From: Promethearchaeota archaeon
GTDB taxonomy: Archaea > Asgardarchaeota > Lokiarchaeia > Sigyniarchaeales > SOKP01
Direction: 5' to 3'
DNA length: 64,000 nt
Assembly: GCA_048938445.1 (NCBI GenBank)
Contig: JBHLME010000002.1
Span: forward strand, 16,092-80,091
In this document: positions 6,950-13,624 of the stretch, one piece after another
How the letters are laid out: each line of letters begins with the position of its first letter
Numbering within the stretch: position 1 is the stretch's first letter
The notes under the pieces: generated by a model
Told to the model about the DNA's origin: nothing
Seen by the model: only the letters and a program-made list of their open reading frames with translations
Databases searched by the model: none
Made by a program: the position numbers and the translations under genes

Positions 6950-8161
6950 TTATAAAGCATTTATAAGAATTTGCATCAATTGTTTTTTATCCGTCTCTCT
7001 TGGATTATTTTCCAATGAACTCCCTGTTGTATCCTTTACAATATCATTAAGATGTTCTTTACTAATTCCAACATCAGATAAATGTAATGGAATGTTGATA
7101 TATTCAAAAATGTCTTTTAATTTTTCAATTGCCCATTCTGCTTGCCCTTTTAATTCTTTAGGTAATACCTTCGAACAACTACCATGATCAGTAAGAATTT
7201 TTTGTTTATGAAACAGTCTTGCAATCCAAGAATAAGCTTTTACAACGGTATCTATTTCAATGTTAAATCTCATTACGTGAGGTAAAAGAAGCCCACATAT
7301 TAGGCCATGAGCAATATCATGTTTTATGCCAATTGGATGGGCAAATCCATGAACTGCTCCAAGTTTACCATTAGCAAATGAAATTGCACCTAATAAACTC
7401 CCAAGCATCATCTTTTCTCTTAAACCTATGTTAGATAAATCATCATATACAAGTGGTAAGTTTTCTCCTAACAATTCTATTGATTTTCTCGCAAAAAAAT
7501 CTGAGATGAAATTTGCACTTTTTGAAACAAGTGATTCTATAGCTTGAACTAACGCATCAGCGCCAGAATATGCAGTGTACTTCTTTGGTAAAGATAAAGT
7601 CAATTCAGGATCTAATAACGCTAAATTTGCCCACAATCCACGAATACTCTTTTTTAATCCAGTTTGTTTATTCTTTATGACGGAATTATTTGTAACTTCT
7701 GAGCCAGTTCCGGAAGTAGTAGGTATTAAAATAAATGGGAGCGCCGGTTGAATAAATTCTTTGCCTGCAAGATATTCTTCCACGATTCCACCATTAGTCG
7801 CGAGCCCTGCGATTCCTTTTGCTGTATCCATGACACTTCCACCACCAATGCCTATTATGATATCACATTTTTTCTCAATAACAATCTCTTTTCCTTGGTT
7901 TATAATATGCGTAGTTGGTTCTCTAATTGCTTTATCATATAGTTCTTTTGATATGTTTTTTTCTTCTAATATTTTAATAATTTGTTCTAAATTACCTGCT
8001 TTTTTCAAAGAGGATCCTCCAGTAACTAAAAATGCTAGGGGATTTTCTATTTTTTTATATTTTAATATACTTTTTATCTCGGATCCCAATTCGTCAATTC
8101 TTCCTGTGCCAAAAATGATTTTGGGTGATATTAAATTAAAATTTATCTCAGTAATTTCCAT
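6950..8161 (-). CDS. Iron-containing alcohol dehydrogenase
   Basis: GIGGGSVMD, IPTTSGTGSEVT, DPELT, HGFAH, HGL. Confidence 0.93.
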   Translation of the reverse strand: MEITEINFNLISPKIIFGTGRIDELGSEIKSILKYKKIENPLAFLVTGGSSLKKAGNLEQIIKILEEKNISKELYDKAIREPTTHIINQGKEIVIEKKCDIIIGIGGGSVMDTAKGIAGLATNGGIVEEYLAGKEFIQPALPFILIPTTSGTGSEVTNNSVIKNKQTGLKKSIRGLWANLALLDPELTLSLPKKYTAYSGADALVQAIESLVSKSANFISDFFARKSIELLGENLPLVYDDLSNIGLREKMMLGSLLGAISFANGKLGAVHGFAHPIGIKHDIAHGLICGLLLPHVMRFNIEIDTVVKAYSWIARLFHKQKILTDHGSCSKVLPKELKGQAEWAIEKLKDIFEYINIPLHLSDVGISKEHLNDIVKDTTGSSLENNPRETDKKQLMQILINAL

Positions 8162-8184: not shown

Positions 8185-8640
8185 TTAGCTTCTATCTATA
8201 GATAGATATTTTTTTTGTCTTAAAAAGATTACACCAATTTTCGCATTTCTTGCTTTTTTACGTAAATCTTGATCATTAGATGCCAAAAATATATTCGATC
8301 TTTCTTCTTTAAGTTCAGTAGCCTTACGTAATAAAAACTCATCTGTAGTTTCTATTTGATCCTTTATAGAATCATCAATTTCAATATTATATTGATTTTT
8401 ATTTTTATCAAGATAGATAAGTCCTGACTCTAATTGTTTATAAAATTTAGTAGCTTTTGGTTCTCTCTCTTTTTTTGCTTCTAATTCATCAAAGATTTGT
8501 CTATACACAATAAATTTTGTTCTGCCTTCCAAACGTGAATTAATATTCTCAAGGTAGTTAATTTTGAATTGGAAAGGAAGAAAAATAAAATTAGAATCTA
8601 TTATAACAAGGTTTTCATAATGAATATTTTTAGGGCTCAA
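8185..8640 (-). CDS. PIN-domain ribonuclease, Fcf1/Utp24-like
   Basis: IIDSNF, IFDELE, TDEFLL, LASNDQDLRKKAR, GVIFLRQKKYL; TTG start overlaps the Rab stop. Confidence 0.8.
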   Translation of the reverse strand: MSPKNIHYENLVIIDSNFIFLPFQFKINYLENINSRLEGRTKFIVYRQIFDELEAKKEREPKATKFYKQLESGLIYLDKNKNQYNIEIDDSIKDQIETTDEFLLRKATELKEERSNIFLASNDQDLRKKARNAKIGVIFLRQKKYLSIDRS

Positions 8641-9158
8641 AAAACTTGTCGCTCTAATATTTTTTTAGTTAATTTTTCAAAAGCAAAGTTAACGTTTTCA
8701 CCAGATTTACTTGAAATTTTTATAAAATCAAATAAATTAAAAGCTTCTTGAAAAGATTGAGCATAATCATCATCAACCATTATTTCTTCTGTTAAATCTA
8801 ACTTTGTTCCAACAAATAACACTGGAAGATCAGGATCACCCTTCCGAACTATATTTATCCATTGCTCTAAATTATCTAACGTTATTGGACGAGTGAGATC
8901 AAACATTAAAAGAGCACCTTTAGCCCCCAAAACGTAGCTTTCAAGGAGGAATCTAAACCGCTCTTGACCACCAAAATCCCAAAGTTGTAGGGTTGCGGCA
9001 TTTCCATCCACTTCAGTTTCTTTTAAAAAAAACTCCACTCCAATTGTCATCTTTGTTTCTGCACTGAATTTGCCTTCAACATATCTATGCAGAAGCGTGG
9101 TTTTTCCAACGCCACCTTCCCCCGCTGTTAGAATCTTCAGTATGAACTTTTTCGGCAT
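8637..9158 (-). CDS. Rab-like small GTPase
   Basis: GEGGVGKT, TIGVEF, LQLWDFGGQERFR, GTKLD, ISSK. Confidence 0.93.
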   Translation of the reverse strand: MPKKFILKILTAGEGGVGKTTLLHRYVEGKFSAETKMTIGVEFFLKETEVDGNAATLQLWDFGGQERFRFLLESYVLGAKGALLMFDLTRPITLDNLEQWINIVRKGDPDLPVLFVGTKLDLTEEIMVDDDYAQSFQEAFNLFDFIKISSKSGENVNFAFEKLTKKILERQVF

Positions 9159-9897: not shown

Positions 9898-10434
9898 TTA
9901 CTCCGCTTTTTTTCTCTGATTAATCCTATTATGCTTTATTAGAGTTTCTCTAATCGATTTAATTTCTGCTCGTGTTTCTATATCAAAATCTTTTAAACCC
10001 TCAAGAATCTCTTTTTCATTTGAACCCATACTATAGAGTTCATTAAATTTTACTATTACCTCTTTATGATAGTAAATGTAATGTCTTTCTAGAAAAATAA
10101 TCAACCATTCTTTATTTGATTGGTACTGTGTTAAATCATACATTTTTTCTTGAATTTTTTTTAATGGCTCCTTTAATTTTCTGGCAACCATTCTATCGTC
10201 AATTTTATAATGACTTTTTAAAGTTTTATTTAATTTTTTTGTAAAAAAGAGTGAATTAATATATGAAACCAAAAATGAAAATGCCAATAATAAAATCGTA
10301 ATAACACATATCCAAATCGTTGCGACAGGATTAACATTTATGAAAAGTAGTGCTATTAACGCTATGGTTAAAAAGATTATTGTAATTATATGTTGTCTAA
10401 ATTTTTTAATGAGTATTATGTATTTTTTTGGCAT
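9898..10434 (-). CDS. Hypothetical protein with two N-terminal TM helices
   Basis: 178-aa ORF; two hydrophobic segments followed by a basic soluble domain. Confidence 0.6.
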   Translation of the reverse strand: MPKKYIILIKKFRQHIITIIFLTIALIALLFINVNPVATIWICVITILLLAFSFLVSYINSLFFTKKLNKTLKSHYKIDDRMVARKLKEPLKKIQEKMYDLTQYQSNKEWLIIFLERHYIYYHKEVIVKFNELYSMGSNEKEILEGLKDFDIETRAEIKSIRETLIKHNRINQRKKAE

Positions 10435-10520
10435 TTAATTAATCAAGTCCATTATATTTTTTTATGATTAAATGATATTAATTATTAAATAAATAAAAAT
10501 TATTAGATAAGTAAAGTTAA

Positions 10521-10716
10521 TGGTATGCGACCATCTAGCTGCACTATCTATTCTGAGTTCGGATGTTATCAGGTAGATCCTAGCTTACCATGACCGTAAA
10601 CGTATTTACAGTTTGTCATTTCCCACTGATCGCAACAGCAGTACTATTGACAACGTAAGCAAGTTTAACTTCCAGAGATATGGCGATATGCCACAGCATC
10701 ATGGTCATTAATACCA
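10521..10716 (-). other. Pre-5S processing stem with a bulge-helix-bulge-type motif
   Basis: Leader/trailer pairings UGGUAU/AUACCA, GACCAU/AUGGUC, GCUGU/GCAGC, UAUCU/AGAUA, then AAU bulge, 4-bp CUGG/UCAG helix and AAG bulge. Confidence 0.8.
10551..10669 (-). rRNA. rrf: 5S rRNA, circularly permuted gene (3' half 10669-10605, UACG linker 10604-10601, 5' half 10600-10551)
   Basis: Minus strand reads GUUAAACUUGCUUACGUUGUCAAUAGUACUGCUGUUGCGAUCAGUGGGAAAUGACAAACUGUAAA-UACG-UUUACGGUCAUGGUAAGCUAGGAUCUACCUGAUAACAUCCGAACUCAGAA. All five 5S helices pair, with loop C CCGAAC and loop E AGUA/GAA; length 119 nt. Confidence 0.9.
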
Positions 10717-10879
10717 ATTCAAATCCGTTCATAAGATCGGTAATTTGAAATTCGAATTCCTACTTATGTGGATAAATTATAATAACTCTAATTATTTTTA
10801 ATAATTAAATTTTATTATATTTATTCGTCTCGTGAAGTAAACCGTTAAATTTAAATAATATTCAAGTGAATCATTAAGA

Positions 10880-11449: not shown

Positions 11450-13624
11450 TCATTCTTTTAATCTTTTCAAATTACTAGAATGTTGATTGATACCTCTAAT
11501 AACTATCACTATAGAAAGACCTGTTATAAATGATATAAGAATAGTACCGCCTATCAAGACAATGTAAGTCGAAGGAATAGGGATGAGGAATTCAAATGTC
11601 TGCGAATAAAATTGCGTGTTGTTGGCATAATCTCTAGTGATGATTGTAAATTCATAGAAGCCCGGCATCATTTTATTCAATAAGACTTGCAGCAAGGTGT
11701 TGTTTTCATACAATGTATTTCTTGATATATCATAGGTGTAGGTTCCACTTATTTTATCTTGAATTAAAACAATGGCACTTTCAATTCCCGAGCGGTTATC
11801 TGAGGCAAAAATATCGAAACAAATGTTGTCTAAAGTCGTGGGATTAATTTTATCACAAAACACGCTTGAAATAACGGGCTTGATATTGTCTTCTTTGGTC
11901 GTGAAGTTAAAATGGGAAGGAATTAAATTATGACCTGTAATCGTCACGTTATATTTTTCATTGGCGTTCGGATAGACGCGAAATTTTGCTATGCCATTTA
12001 TATCCGCGTATACAGTGTTATATTTCCCATCTTCCGTCGTTAGATGGATTCTCGCATGAGGAACTATATTGTTTCGTGTATCTCTGATGGTTATTGAGAC
12101 TAACTGACCTTCATAAATGTCCCCTGTAAATGGATTTGAAGCATTTACGGGTTTGTTCGTGTAGATGTCAACTTCGGGATCACCTAAAAGGCAATAGGTC
12201 AAGACATTCTTTCTTTGATATCCTAAACTCATCGATGATATTGTCTGGGCAAAGATATCGGAATTTACGTAATCTAGTTTGGAATCATACAGGGTTTTAC
12301 CTTGTTGGTAAATTTTATCTTCAAAAAATTTCTCCCAGAATAATTTCGCATTAGCTCTATTTAAAAATTCGAAATCAAAATCATCTACAATATACCATGT
12401 AACGCGTAATGCCCCAATATAACCAATAGCACCAGAGTTAGTCGCTTTGATTAATATTTCTCCTATGTTCTGATCAGTATCATCATAAGCTGAAGTTGTA
12501 CAAGCATCAGCATAGATCAATGAAGGCATATCAGCATTAGAACTAGATGATGCTTGAGTATCTGTGTATATACTAAAACCTACACCACGGCTACTATATA
12601 ATCCAGTATCACCATGACCCGCAAACATGATCGTTGAGTAACCACTGTTAAATTCATTGTTAAATTCAGAAGCATCACTAATTTCGTCTACAGTATCTGA
12701 TGGATCTACTGAAGTATTCACTGAAAAATAAGTTGATCTATATAAATGAGTAAAATTCATTTCAGGTTCGACATAATTTTTCCAGATATATTCTGTCAAA
12801 CGAGCCTCATCTTCACCATCGGGACTTGCTTCAATAACAGTATCTGAGATTACTCCTGCTAATAACATGTTATTCATCCAATCATCAATATATGGATCTG
12901 ACTCGTATTTTATGGTCTTATTGACCATCTGTTGTAATTCGATATAATTGCTAGCTGGCAAGCGTCCAACATACACTTCAGGGATCCAATTAATTTCATC
13001 TATTCCAAATGCATTATATATTGGTGATTCACCAAAATTATTGTCATTATCATCATCCCACGTGCCCGTCAAGTCGGCATAATAAAAATCCGTAGGTTTG
13101 TAAACCCTATCACCATGTTCTGGGTGAGGTCCGTTAGGAGCATCGTCAACATCTGGATTATAAACATATCTTATTGGAATGAGACTATTTTCTGCATCTC
13201 CCACTAATAAGACCCATCGAATCCCTTCTTTTTCATAGTATTCCTTTATCATGTTTCGAATTCGTTCTGGATCGTCTCTCCCAGGGTATGATGAGAAATT
13301 GCTCAATATGATGGTCTTAACTCCTTTTTGGTTCTTCCAGTCCCGTAATGGAATGGTTGCATTGATAAAATTCTCATCATCGGGAGTTATGATTATCATT
13401 TCAACATCATGGTCATACCAAGTTTCATTTAAATCAGTAAAATTAAATTCAGGTATTAATGACGGATTTAAATCAGAAATGTAACCTGATGTTTTTAATA
13501 TTTCAGAATTATTAAAGTTCTTAAAAGTTATTGCGTTAAGGTTTATGATTAAAATATAAGTTGGGAAAACAAGGAAAATAATAAATGAGAGATATATAAT
13601 TCTTTTTAAGAGAAGCGACTTCAT
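11450..13624 (-). CDS. Peptidase C25 (gingipain-like) cysteine protease, membrane anchored
   Basis: WKNQKG, WVLLVGD, TDFYYADL, EVYVGRLP, FAGHG (His), ADAC (Cys), LLGDP; N-terminal signal/TM and C-terminal TM. Confidence 0.9.
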   Translation of the reverse strand: MKSLLLKRIIYLSFIIFLVFPTYILIINLNAITFKNFNNSEILKTSGYISDLNPSLIPEFNFTDLNETWYDHDVEMIIITPDDENFINATIPLRDWKNQKGVKTIILSNFSSYPGRDDPERIRNMIKEYYEKEGIRWVLLVGDAENSLIPIRYVYNPDVDDAPNGPHPEHGDRVYKPTDFYYADLTGTWDDDNDNNFGESPIYNAFGIDEINWIPEVYVGRLPASNYIELQQMVNKTIKYESDPYIDDWMNNMLLAGVISDTVIEASPDGEDEARLTEYIWKNYVEPEMNFTHLYRSTYFSVNTSVDPSDTVDEISDASEFNNEFNSGYSTIMFAGHGDTGLYSSRGVGFSIYTDTQASSSSNADMPSLIYADACTTSAYDDTDQNIGEILIKATNSGAIGYIGALRVTWYIVDDFDFEFLNRANAKLFWEKFFEDKIYQQGKTLYDSKLDYVNSDIFAQTISSMSLGYQRKNVLTYCLLGDPEVDIYTNKPVNASNPFTGDIYEGQLVSITIRDTRNNIVPHARIHLTTEDGKYNTVYADINGIAKFRVYPNANEKYNVTITGHNLIPSHFNFTTKEDNIKPVISSVFCDKINPTTLDNICFDIFASDNRSGIESAIVLIQDKISGTYTYDISRNTLYENNTLLQVLLNKMMPGFYEFTIITRDYANNTQFYSQTFEFLIPIPSTYIVLIGGTILISFITGLSIVIVIRGINQHSSNLKRLKE

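What the first reader, a model, noticed from the sequence alone, without database searches (positions are those of the whole stretch)
10551..10669. Circularly permuted 5S rRNA gene: 3' half first, canonical ends fused by a UACG tetraloop
Seen in sequence: on the minus strand the 5S 3' half (GUUAAAC...AGUACUG...GGGAAA...CUGUAAA, 10669-10605) comes before the 5' half (UUUACGGUCAU...ACCUGAUAACAUCCGAACUCAGAA, 10600-10551). Re-ordered, every 5S element pairs. Helix I is ACUGUAAA/UUUACGGU. Helix II is GUAAGCUAG/CUUGCUUAC with one U-U. Helix III is ACCUGA/UCAG-AA-GU with the conserved AA bulge and loop C CCGAAC. UUGUCA/UGACAA and CUGCUG/CAGUGG flank a loop E AGUA/GAA. The unit is 119 nt, normal 5S size, and stands alone with no 16S/23S gene nearby. 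Established knowledge: permuted tRNA genes and the permuted SRP RNA of Thermoproteus exist. I do not know of a described permuted 5S rRNA gene. Inference: this is the functional 5S gene, and linear 5S models would miss it or call it partial.
Basis: partly seen in the sequence, partly recalled or inferred. Interest (0 to 1): 0.97.

Follow-up and report, generated by a model that had tools for sequence, protein, structure and literature searches.

The report
Permuted 5S rRNA gene, circularised
This archaeon, like most of its Asgard relatives, encodes its only 5S ribosomal RNA with the two halves in swapped order, flanked by a tRNA-splicing-type motif that should cut the transcript out and join its ends into a ring with the normal 5S sequence.

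Summary
Window 10669-10551 (minus strand) is a 119-nt 5S rRNA gene in the order 3' half, UACG-capped helix I, 5' half. Rfam sees two adjacent half-hits (19.3 and 15.9 bits, cut-off 38). A profile of canonical 5S from the sister family aligns full-length only after re-ordering (35.3 against 20.5 bits). It is the only 5S-like locus in the 96.5%-complete genome.

The permuted fold covaries strongly: 95% of cells pair and 29 of 37 pairs show compensatory change across 54 sequences. A model of the permuted gene hits 120 of 135 genomes of the family, usually once, and many other families of the phylum. Canonical 5S occurs in the complementary families.

Cutting after the second bulge nucleotide and ligating restores the canonical ...CAGAA-GUUAAAC... 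junction. Relatives use other breakpoints that give the same circle.

The genome has two EndA paralogs and RtcB. One metatranscriptome contig from a relative holds both the cap and the ligated junction as a 121-nt cycle.

Whether the mature RNA stays circular is inferred. I found no paper describing this.

The parts
10551..10669 (-). Permuted 5S rRNA unit of 119 nt, the segment predicted to be excised and circularised.
   Evidence: Model R1 scores 139.9 bits at 10538-10681.
10605..10669 (-). 5S 3' half: the 3' strands of helix III (GU) and helix II, helix V, loop E, helix IV, and the 3' strand of helix I.
   Evidence: The Rfam partial alignment covers model positions about 52-120. nhmmer aligns profile positions 49-115. 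Covariation.
10601..10604 (-). UACG tetraloop capping helix I, where a canonical 5S has its two ends.
   Evidence: The three base pairs next to the loop covary. My script found UNCG-type caps in at least 37 of 72 distinct relatives.
10551..10600 (-). 5S 5' half: 5' strand of helix I, loop A, 5' strand of helix II, loop B, helix III and loop C, ending ...CCGAACUCAGAA.
   Evidence: The Rfam partial alignment covers model positions 1 to about 51..
10672..10675 (-). Leader strand (CUGG) of the 4-bp central helix of the BHB-like motif. It pairs with UCAG at 10556-10553.
   Evidence: The leader strand covaries with its partner across relatives: CUGG/CCAG, CCGG/CCGG, UCCG/CGGA, CGUG/CACG, CCGC/GCGG and others.
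10669..10671 (-). Leader-side bulge AAG. The predicted cut lies between 10670 and 10669.
   Evidence: G10669 could instead pair with C10557, leaving a 2-nt bulge.
10676..10680 (-). Leader strand (UAUCU) of the outer BHB helix. It pairs with AGAUA at 10549-10545.
10553..10556 (-). Unit strand (UCAG) of the central BHB helix. In the mature fold the same bases are the 3' strand of helix III.
10550..10552 (-). Trailer-side 3-nt bulge AAU. The predicted cut lies between 10551 and 10550.
10545..10549 (-). Trailer strand (AGAUA) of the outer BHB helix.
10682..10692 (-). Small leader hairpin (GGC-AUAUC-GCC) between the long stem and the BHB. Relatives have GUAGC-N5-GCUAC at the same place.
10693..10716 (-). 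Leader strand of the long leader/trailer processing stem (UGGUAU, UGACCAU, GCUGU).
   Evidence: Present in both the MFE and the constrained fold. The leader/trailer duplex beats shuffles (z below -2) in 45 of 52 distinct relatives.
10521..10542 (-). Trailer strand of the processing stem (GCAGC, AUGGUCG, AUACCA).
10495..10499 (-). Oligo-U run downstream of the stem, a possible archaeal terminator. Tentative.
   Evidence: Read directly from the sequence. Not tested.

Best explanation
Window 10669-10551 (minus strand) is the organism's only 5S rRNA gene, encoded circularly permuted: 3' half, helix I closed by a UACG tetraloop, then 5' half.

It is transcribed with a leader and a trailer. These pair into a long processing stem that ends in a bulge-helix-bulge-like motif. 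The motif has a 5-bp outer helix (UAUCU/AGAUA), a 4-bp central helix (leader CUGG with UCAG of the unit's 3' end), and one bulge on each strand.

The archaeal RNA-splicing endonuclease cuts after the second nucleotide of each bulge, before G10669 and after A10551. RtcB then joins the two new ends. This creates the ...CUCAGAA-GUUAAAC... junction that every normal 5S has between helix III and helix II. The product is a 119-nt covalently closed 5S rRNA with all canonical helices, and I think it most likely stays circular in the ribosome.

Shown here: the permuted order, the conserved covarying fold, the flanking motif and its conservation, the presence of the enzymes, the absence of another 5S gene, and a ligated junction in an RNA contig of a close relative.

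Inferred: that EndA and RtcB do the cutting and joining in this organism, and that the circle is the mature form.
For: 1. Gene identity. See the observation check.

2. Sole 5S gene. In G000 (96.5% complete) the only RF00001 match is this locus, and R1 hits it once. In three single-contig and two 10-contig relatives, the only RF00001 matches are below cut-off (17-29 bits) and lie on the permuted locus, in 5 of 5 genomes.

3. Conservation of the permuted gene.
- Family: R1 hits 120 of 135 genomes, and 33 of 36 high-quality ones.
- Order sample: f1 118/131, f3 1/1, f4 3/4.
- Class sample: f5 2/2, f6 3/3, f7 2/2.
- Phylum sample: 86 of 151 genomes.
- In a phylum sample of the same size, canonical RF00001 passes its cut-off in 49 of 151 genomes, concentrated in families that R1 does not hit: f12 26/26 with a match, f17 17/19, f21 3/5.
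- I confirmed the order 3' half, cap, 5' half by eye in fetched loci of 19 further families.

4. BHB-like motif.
- At the junction expected from homology, a central helix and an outer helix of 2-10 bp are present in 46 of 46 family loci. The central helix has 4 of 4 pairs in 44 of them.
- The motif is also present in 6 of 7 loci of f5-f7.
- It is present with outer helices of 5-15 bp in 12 of 21 loci of other families.
- The cut rule restores the same canonical junction from different breakpoints: type A after ...GAA (36 loci), type B inside loop C (10 loci), type C one nucleotide later, and other families one nucleotide earlier.
- The BHB conformer of the window's precursor costs only 1.5 kcal/mol above the MFE, -53.7 against -55.2.

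5. Processing stem. Leader/trailer duplex z is below -2 in 45 of 52 distinct pairs, with a median of -3.07. Canonical 5S genes of family f2 have no such flanks.

6. Enzymes. The genome has two EndA-family ORFs (107 and 70 bits) and one RtcB (564 bits).

7. The same machinery acts on this RNA in relatives. The 30-nt inserts in the helix IV loop form strict hBHBh' motifs in 5 of 5 loci examined, and their removal gives exactly the insert-free sequence.

8. RNA evidence.
- In metatranscriptome run X20, one 151-nt contig (depth 3.7) lies on 10598-10672 with 4 differences and again on 10585-10627 with 1 difference, with 33 other letters between.
- In RNA sense it runs cap, 5' half, ...CCCAGAA-GUUAAAC..., 3' half, cap. 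That is a 121-nt cycle plus a 30-nt overlap.
- It holds both the cap and the junction, and that junction is absent from DNA.
- No such joint appears in the three DNA runs.

9. The DNA order is real. Contigs of two studies match with 0 differences across 10350-10646 and 10620-10870, and across 10496-10648 and 10619-10747.

10. Caps are mostly stable UNCG tetraloops, and helix I covaries up to the loop. This argues that the cap is kept.
Against: - The RNA evidence is one low-depth contig from a relative in one run. Contigs cannot prove that the cap and the junction sit on one molecule, and DNA in the library cannot be formally excluded.
- There are no expression data for this organism itself.
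- The motif is not a textbook hBHBh'. In the strict register there is no inner helix (0 bp). In the alternative register GUU pairs with AAC and the leader bulge shrinks to 2 nt.
- The unconstrained MFE prefers helix III to the BHB. The precursor's fold z-score is only -1.78.
- My strict scan did not find the expected motif in 5 of 11 loci from outside the family (f3, f4 and one f5 locus), nor in 9 of 21 loci of other families.
- 15 of 135 family genomes have no R1 hit. They are 68-97% complete, so absence is not shown.
- The A3 alignment was fitted to the model, which inflates pair counts somewhat.
- Circularity of the mature RNA rests on inference.
Confidence: 0.8

Rival explanations
1. The gene and its BHB excision and ligation are the same, but the circle is only an intermediate. 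It is re-opened in or near the helix I cap to give a normal linear 5S with canonical ends, as happens with permuted tRNA genes.
For: There is precedent. Permuted tRNA genes are expressed through a circular intermediate that is then cut to the standard form (PMC3978253, search-listing abstract; PMC10085705, passages). [quoted passage not shown] A de Bruijn cycle could be built from precursor reads that hold the cap plus mature reads that hold the junction. Some relatives carry a 30-nt insert in the cap (L025, L078), which might be a processing element.
Against: Caps are mostly UNCG tetraloops, with UUCG alone in 29 of 72, and helix I covaries right up to the loop. That is what one expects of a retained hairpin rather than a cleavage site. 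My scan found no conserved second motif or BHB at the cap. In the low-depth RNA contig the cap is represented at the same depth as the junction.
Confidence: 0.12
2. The transcript is trimmed but never ligated. The ribosome uses a linear, circularly permuted 5S with its ends between helix III and helix II, as in brown-algal mitochondria where the product itself is permuted.
For: Permuted linear 5S exists in brown-algal mitochondria (PMC4267664, passages). The linear permuted unit folds into the same helices. From memory and not from any call, engineered E. coli ribosomes tolerate a circularly permuted 5S.
Against: The RNA contig contains the ligated junction. Several different breakpoints in relatives all reconstruct one and the same circle under the BHB cut rule, which would be needless if the ends stayed open. 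RtcB and EndA are present.
Confidence: 0.06
3. It is an artefact or a dead copy: a misassembled or collapsed tandem 5S repeat, or a rearranged pseudogene, while the working 5S gene is unassembled.
For: The assembly has 256 contigs and 8% contamination. No single DNA contig in the laid runs spans the whole stretch, and unitigs break at 10620-10649.
Against: The same order with unique, non-repeated flanks occurs in 120 of 135 family genomes, including single-contig ones that lack any other 5S. DNA contigs of two studies match both sides without a difference and overlap in the middle. Compensatory changes show purifying selection on the permuted fold.
Confidence: 0.02

Closest known systems
Permuted SRP RNA gene of Thermoproteus tenax (Plagens et al. 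2015, PMC4731332; abstract read)
   Same: A structural RNA gene with its halves swapped. The new termini lie near a functional loop. [quoted passage not shown]
   Different: The RNA here is the ribosomal 5S rather than SRP RNA. The spread is across many families of a phylum rather than a few species. Lineages use several breakpoints, and some relatives carry extra BHB introns. Circularity and enzyme cleavage are not shown experimentally here.
Circularly permuted tRNA genes (Soma 2014 review, PMC3978253; search-listing abstract only)
   Same: The 3' half is encoded upstream of the 5' half. BHB-type processing of leader and trailer gives a circular RNA stage.
   Different: tRNA circles are re-opened at the acceptor-stem junction to give ordinary linear tRNA. 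Here the native ends are replaced by a conserved stable tetraloop, and no opening signal was found.
Permuted mitochondrial 5S rRNA of brown algae (Valach et al. 2014, PMC4267664; passages read)
   Same: A 5S rRNA whose helix I is a closed hairpin and whose ends lie elsewhere. Standard 5S models miss it.
   Different: In the algal case the ends lie at the junction of the alpha and gamma domains and the final product stays permuted and linear. It is organellar and involves no BHB or ligation. Here the break is between helix III and helix II, or in loop C, and ligation restores a continuous canonical sequence.
[quoted passage not shown]
   Same: A leader/trailer processing stem carries a BHB, and EndA cleavage is followed by circularisation of a ribosomal RNA.
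   Different: Those genes are collinear, and circularisation joins the natural ends. PMC12918454 states that this processing applies to 16S and 23S 'but not 5S rRNAs'. Here the gene itself is permuted, and ligation is needed to make the 5S sequence contiguous.
Heterogeneous circular forms of canonical 5S rRNA in Sulfolobus and Halobacterium (PMC12558985; passages read)
   Same: Circular 5S-derived RNAs exist in archaea.
   Different: They come from collinear genes, have variable junctions, and are interpreted there as possibly part of degradation. They do not arise from a defined BHB junction that a permuted gene requires.

Membership tests
5S rRNA (Rfam RF00001) | Three-way junction fold with helices I to V | tested here: met
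   All 37 pairs of the fold were placed on the permuted order. 95.3% of cells pair with 21 of 37 compensatory pairs. 95.1% pair with 29 of 37 compensatory pairs on 54 distinct sequences.
5S rRNA (Rfam RF00001) | Conserved sequence of loop A, loop C, loop E and the helix III to helix II linker | tested here: met
   CAU.G, CCGAAC, AGUAC...GGGAA and AAGUUAA align to the Rfam consensus and to the canonical 5S profile of family f2 at positions 4-114 of 118.
5S rRNA (Rfam RF00001) | Reaches the curated gathering score (38 bits) as one collinear match | tested here: not met
   0 matches at gathering. Two half matches at 19.3 and 15.9 bits. This is the expected result of the permutation and does not count against homology.
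5S rRNA (Rfam RF00001) | Is the 5S of the ribosome (incorporated, binds L5/L18) | not testable with these tools
   Indirect only: it is the sole 5S-like locus in this genome and in closed relatives.
Substrate of the archaeal splicing endonuclease (bulge-helix-bulge motif) | 4-bp central helix flanked by two 3-nt bulges on opposite strands, each 3' of the central helix (geometry recalled from memory) | tested here: inconclusive
   The central helix CUGG/UCAG has 4 of 4 pairs and the trailer bulge AAU is 3 nt. The leader bulge is AAG, or only AA if G10669 pairs with C10557.
Substrate of the archaeal splicing endonuclease (bulge-helix-bulge motif) | Outer helix beyond the bulges | tested here: met
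   5 bp, UAUCU/AGAUA, continued by an 18-bp interrupted leader/trailer stem. Outer helices of 2-10 bp in 46 of 46 family loci.
Substrate of the archaeal splicing endonuclease (bulge-helix-bulge motif) | Inner helix h' on the product side | tested here: not met
   0 bp in the strict register for all type A and type B loci, and 3 bp (GUU/AAC) only in the shifted register for type A. This makes it a relaxed BHB or bulge-helix-loop form. From memory, such forms are cut by broad-specificity EndA types.
Substrate of the archaeal splicing endonuclease (bulge-helix-bulge motif) | Enzymes present in the genome | tested here: met
   Two PF01974 ORFs of 208 and 211 aa, which would fit a two-subunit enzyme, though the enzyme type was not determined. 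One PF01139 RtcB.
Substrate of the archaeal splicing endonuclease (bulge-helix-bulge motif) | Cleavage at the predicted sites | not testable with these tools
   Indirect only: the junction in the RNA contig of a relative equals the predicted ligation product.
Permuted genes expressed as circular RNA (Thermoproteus SRP RNA type) | Junction-spanning RNA reads | tested here: inconclusive
   One 151-nt contig in one metatranscriptome (X20, depth 3.7) from a relative forms a 121-nt cycle with both the cap and the junction. No read-level data were available.
Permuted mitochondrial 5S (brown algae type) | Ends at the junction of the alpha and gamma domains, with a linear permuted product | tested here: not met
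   The ends here lie between helix III and helix II, in the beta domain. No Rfam family other than RF00001 matched the locus with 5S-like alignment.

The most novel reading that the evidence does not exclude
In most Asgard archaea (labelled Promethearchaeota in the public records) the ribosome carries a covalently closed circular 5S rRNA. It can only be made because the tRNA-splicing endonuclease and RtcB excise and ligate the transcript of a circularly permuted gene. The breakpoint has moved repeatedly inside a constant BHB frame, and 30-nt BHB introns have invaded the same gene. The two cultured Lokiarchaeia lineages appear to lie in the canonical family f2. This is my inference from genome sizes and not from any call. 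It would explain why the trait has gone unnoticed.
Probability: 0.55. Interest if true: 0.95.

Novelty: new variant of a known kind. Interest (0 to 1): 0.92.

Why it matters
5S rRNA is treated as the easiest RNA gene to find and as a linear molecule in all cellular ribosomes. Here a whole archaeal lineage, the one closest to eukaryotes, appears to encode it scrambled and to depend on the tRNA-splicing machinery to make it.

The consequences would be these:
- It adds a universal ribosomal RNA to the short list of permuted genes (tRNA, SRP RNA, tmRNA).
- It makes EndA and RtcB essential for ribosome biogenesis in these organisms.
- It probably gives a ribosome with a circular 5S.
- It explains why standard annotation reports 'no 5S rRNA' for most Asgard genomes, which affects MIMAG-style quality calls for their MAGs.
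- The shifting breakpoints and introns offer a natural experiment on how permuted RNA genes arise and drift.

Tried and rejected
Rfam at gathering thresholds on the whole window gave nothing.

I used an nhmmer profile of canonical 5S instead.

The unconstrained MFE of the precursor did not show the BHB. It pairs 10578-10574 with 10550-10546 and keeps helix III. The BHB appears only under constraint, at +1.5 kcal/mol.

My first strict BHB scan required 4 of 4 central pairs and at least 4 outer pairs. It missed many loci whose outer helix is 3 bp, and it returned chance solutions in AU-rich flanks. I replaced it with a scan at the homologous junction.

For families f3 and f4 and one f5 locus I found no motif at the expected place. 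By eye, f3 (L068) seems to break in loop B, but I did not establish this.

The loop C and cap inserts of relatives gave no strict BHB.

The cap-loop script mis-anchored about 8-10 of 72 rows, for example L086, L088, L091 and L093, so the UNCG count is a lower bound.

The genome contigs pattern does not distinguish permuted from canonical genes. Its hits in Bathyarchaeia, Thermoproteota and Nanoarchaeota score only 23-28 bits with R1, and I take them as canonical.

X20 contig 8 (149 nt, depth 18.9) shows a joined ...CCCGGAAGUUAAAC... end. It aligns over only 36 nt and may be an ordinary 5S of another organism, so I did not use it. Parts of the laid stretch without cover in runs X3, X8 and X20 mean nothing.

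The search for BHB flanks around canonical f2 genes found only weak AU-rich solutions.

Supplementary files of papers were not consulted, and supplements of PMC12918454 and PMC12558985 might list 5S circles that I could not see.

Literature searches for an archaeal permuted or circular 5S gene found only the mitochondrial case and the heterogeneous circles of canonical 5S. A 2023 paper's list of known permuted natural RNAs names only the mitochondrial 5S. Papers in subscription journals are outside the library.
Full report
**What is there.** The window has 29.4% G+C. At curated thresholds Rfam finds nothing in the 64 kb: no 5S, no 16S and no 23S. With permissive thresholds RF00001 gives two abutting sub-threshold hits, 10515-10601 (19.3 bits) and 10603-10712 (15.9 bits). 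Their well-aligned parts are the 5' half and the 3' half respectively.

A sequence profile built from nine canonical 5S genes of the sister family aligns over positions 4-114 of 118 to the unit after its halves are swapped in a script (35.3 bits). On the native order it aligns only over positions 49-115 (20.5 bits). I could not score the re-ordered sequence with the Rfam covariance model, because Infernal is not in the script box and joined sequence may not be passed to tools.

**It is the only 5S gene.** In the window's own assembly (4.63 Mb, 256 contigs, 96.5% complete) the only RF00001 match at E up to 10 is this locus. Among 41 relatives, RF00001 passes its cut-off in 9 genomes, all of family f2. 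It passes in none of the 25 genomes of the window's family f1.

In three single-contig genomes and two 10-contig genomes that carry the permuted gene, the only RF00001 matches score 17-29 bits and sit on that gene, in 5 of 5 genomes. DNA contigs from runs of two studies reproduce the order without a difference (10350-10646 and 10620-10870; 10496-10648 and 10619-10747). No single contig spans the conserved middle. A misassembly or collapsed repeat is therefore excluded.

**The permuted fold is under selection.** I aligned 12 units of the same type with 12-nt flanks and wrote the 5S helices onto the permuted order.
- On these 12 sequences, 95.3% of cells form standard pairs, against 77.5% in shuffles (0 of 500 reach the observed value) and 35-44% when partners are slid.
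- 21 of 37 pairs change on both sides.
- With 58 matches (54 distinct) aligned to the covariance model R1, the figures are 95.1% and 29 of 37. This larger alignment is fitted to the model, which flatters the counts.
- Helix I covaries right up to the capping loop.

**Distribution.** R1 finds one strong match per genome in 120 of 135 genomes of family f1. Most score 84-158 bits, and 33 of 36 high-quality genomes are hit.
- Order sample: f3 (1 of 1) and f4 (3 of 4) are hit. Family f2 gives only matches of about 30 bits to its canonical genes.
- Class sample: f5, f6 and f7 are hit in 7 of 7 genomes.
- Phylum sample: 86 of 151 genomes are hit, spread over some 20 families. They include a closed 1.42-Mb genome and a closed 3.58-Mb genome.
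- Canonical RF00001 passes its cut-off in 49 of 151 genomes of a phylum sample of the same size. These are concentrated in families R1 does not hit: f12, f17, f21, f15, f31 and f2.

I read the fetched loci of 19 further families. All showed the order 3' half, capped helix I, 5' half, except the f12 locus, which is collinear as expected.

Public records with the f1-type gene are mostly labelled Promethearchaeota, the Asgard phylum, and include Loki-labelled MAGs. A Ras-family GTPase gene lies 1.4 kb away. From memory, such GTPases are typical of Asgard archaea.

**The flanks give the mechanism.** Upstream and downstream of the unit, leader and trailer pair. In the window UGGUAU/AUACCA, UGACCAU/AUGGUCG and GCUGU/GCAGC form a long stem. 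After a small leader hairpin come a 5-bp helix UAUCU/AGAUA and a 4-bp helix between leader CUGG and UCAG at the unit's 3' end. A bulge follows on each strand, AAG on the leader side and AAU on the trailer side.

This is the layout of a bulge-helix-bulge motif of the kind found in archaeal 16S and 23S processing stems. Applying the usual rule of a cut after the second bulge nucleotide (recalled, not from a call), the product starts at G10669 and ends at A10551. Joining them writes ...CUCAGAA-GUUAAAC..., the normal 5S sequence between helix III and helix II. Forcing this conformer costs 1.5 kcal/mol relative to the MFE.

**The motif is conserved, and it predicts the same product from different breakpoints.**
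- At the homologous junction all 46 family loci examined have the central helix (4 of 4 pairs in 44 loci) and an outer helix of 2-10 bp.
- The leader strand of the central helix covaries with its partner: CUGG/CCAG, CCGG/CCGG, CUGG/UCAG, and in other families UCCG/CGGA, GCCG/CGGU, CGUG/CACG, CAGG/CCUG and CCGC/GCGG.
- Ten family loci (type B) keep the same leader and trailer but carry loop C and the 3' strand of helix III at the 5' end of the unit. Their central helix uses the 5' strand of helix III instead. The same cut rule yields ...ACCCGGUC-CCAUCCGAAC..., again the canonical sequence.
- Families f5-f7 cut one nucleotide later (6 of 7 loci). Several other families cut one nucleotide earlier, with outer helices of 5-15 bp. 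The expected motif is found in 12 of 21 of those loci.
- In 9 of those 21 loci, and in 5 of 11 loci from outside the family (f3, f4 and one f5 locus), my strict scan did not find it.
- Leader/trailer duplexes are more stable than shuffles (z below -2) in 45 of 52 distinct pairs.
- Canonical 5S genes of family f2 have a TATA-like box and an oligo-T run directly at the gene ends and no such stem.

**Machinery and a second use of it.** The genome encodes two EndA-family proteins and one RtcB. In relatives the permuted gene also carries 30-nt inserts. Those in the helix IV loop form strict hBHBh' motifs in 5 of 5 loci, and removing them restores the insert-free sequence exactly. The splicing endonuclease is therefore expected to act on this RNA anyway.

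**RNA evidence.** One public metatranscriptome (X20) holds a 151-nt contig of a close relative. In RNA sense it runs through the cap, the 5' half, the predicted junction ...CCCAGAA-GUUAAAC..., the 3' half and the cap again. This amounts to a 121-nt cycle with a 30-nt overlap. The three DNA runs show no such joint.

The junction is not encoded in any of the genomes read, so it indicates ligation at the predicted place. The evidence is limited to a single contig at depth 3.7. Contigs cannot show that the cap and the junction lie on one molecule.

**Circular or re-opened?** The native ends are replaced mostly by UNCG tetraloops: UUCG in 29 and UACG in 5 of 72 distinct sequences, a lower bound because my script mis-anchored some rows. 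Helix I covaries up to the loop, and I found no second processing motif at the cap. I therefore favour a mature circular 5S, as for the permuted SRP RNA of Thermoproteus (PMC4731332, abstract). I put the chance of a re-opened linear form at about 12% and of a never-ligated linear permuted form at about 6%.

**Comparison with the literature.** The library searches returned the following:
- permuted mitochondrial 5S rRNAs, which are linear products without ligation (PMC4267664, passages)
- permuted tRNA and SRP RNA genes
- circular or permuted 23S
- heterogeneous circles of canonical 5S, thought to be related to degradation (PMC12558985, passages)

A 2026 paper states that circularisation concerns 16S and 23S 'but not 5S rRNAs' (PMC12918454, passages). 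A 2023 list of permuted natural RNAs names only the mitochondrial 5S (PMC10085705, passages). A 2026 preprint on Asgard tRNA introns does not mention rRNA. I found no description of an archaeal permuted 5S gene, though subscription journals and supplements were not searchable.

**Verdict.** The gene is a BHB-framed, circularly permuted 5S rRNA gene. It is the sole 5S gene of this genome, and it is shared by most sampled families of the phylum. The mechanism is of a known kind, a permuted RNA gene rescued by the splicing endonuclease and ligase. It is applied here to a universal ribosomal RNA and on a scale not described in the papers I could search.

Noticed in passing
L080, L077, L024, L076, L079 (relatives of family f1), helix IV loop of the permuted 5S: 30-nt inserts form strict hBHBh' motifs. 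Removing them at the predicted cuts gives exactly the insert-free sequence of other relatives. They look like BHB mini-introns inside a 5S rRNA gene.
   Followed up: partly
L077, L078, L050, L059, L060 (loop C); L025, L078 (helix I cap); L048 (loop C): Further inserts of about 30 nt lie in loop C and in the helix I cap, without a strict BHB in my scan. The L048 insert repeats part of the neighbouring helix II/III sequence.
   Followed up: partly
L013 (G005) against the window and L028 (G004), all genus g1: Breakpoint types A and B both occur within one genus, inside homologous leader and trailer frames. The breakpoint therefore seems to shift easily, possibly through a 16-nt duplication intermediate.
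   Followed up: no
G032:C1:1399892-1400758 (family f2): Three tandem canonical 5S genes lie 374-375 nt apart in a closed genome of the one family of the order that has collinear 5S. Tandem copies are a plausible raw material for permutation or reversion.
   Followed up: no
L104, L105 (G256, family f30): At least four copies of a permuted 5S gene sit at contig ends, with a 9-bp outer BHB helix. It is a multi-copy locus that breaks the assembly. RF00001 just reaches 38.4 bits there although the gene is permuted.
   Followed up: partly
L165, L120, L124, L154, L115, L155, L157, L181, L185 (public MAG contigs): These contigs are labelled Nanopelagicaceae bacterium, Thor-, Odin-, Hermod- or Hodarchaeota, yet they carry the f1-type permuted 5S at 66-148 bits. 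The labels or the binning look doubtful.
   Followed up: no
window 8637-9158 (-), 11450-13624 (-), 6950-8161 (-), 9898-10434 (-): The neighbouring ORFs are a Ras-family small GTPase, a C25-family peptidase with an Ig-like domain, an iron alcohol dehydrogenase, and a 178-aa ORF without a Pfam match directly downstream of the 5S trailer.
   Followed up: no
L002-L010 (canonical 5S of family f2): An A/T-rich TATA-like box lies about 25-30 nt upstream and an oligo-T run directly downstream of the mature ends, with no leader/trailer stem. These genes look like simple transcription units, unlike the permuted genes.
   Followed up: partly
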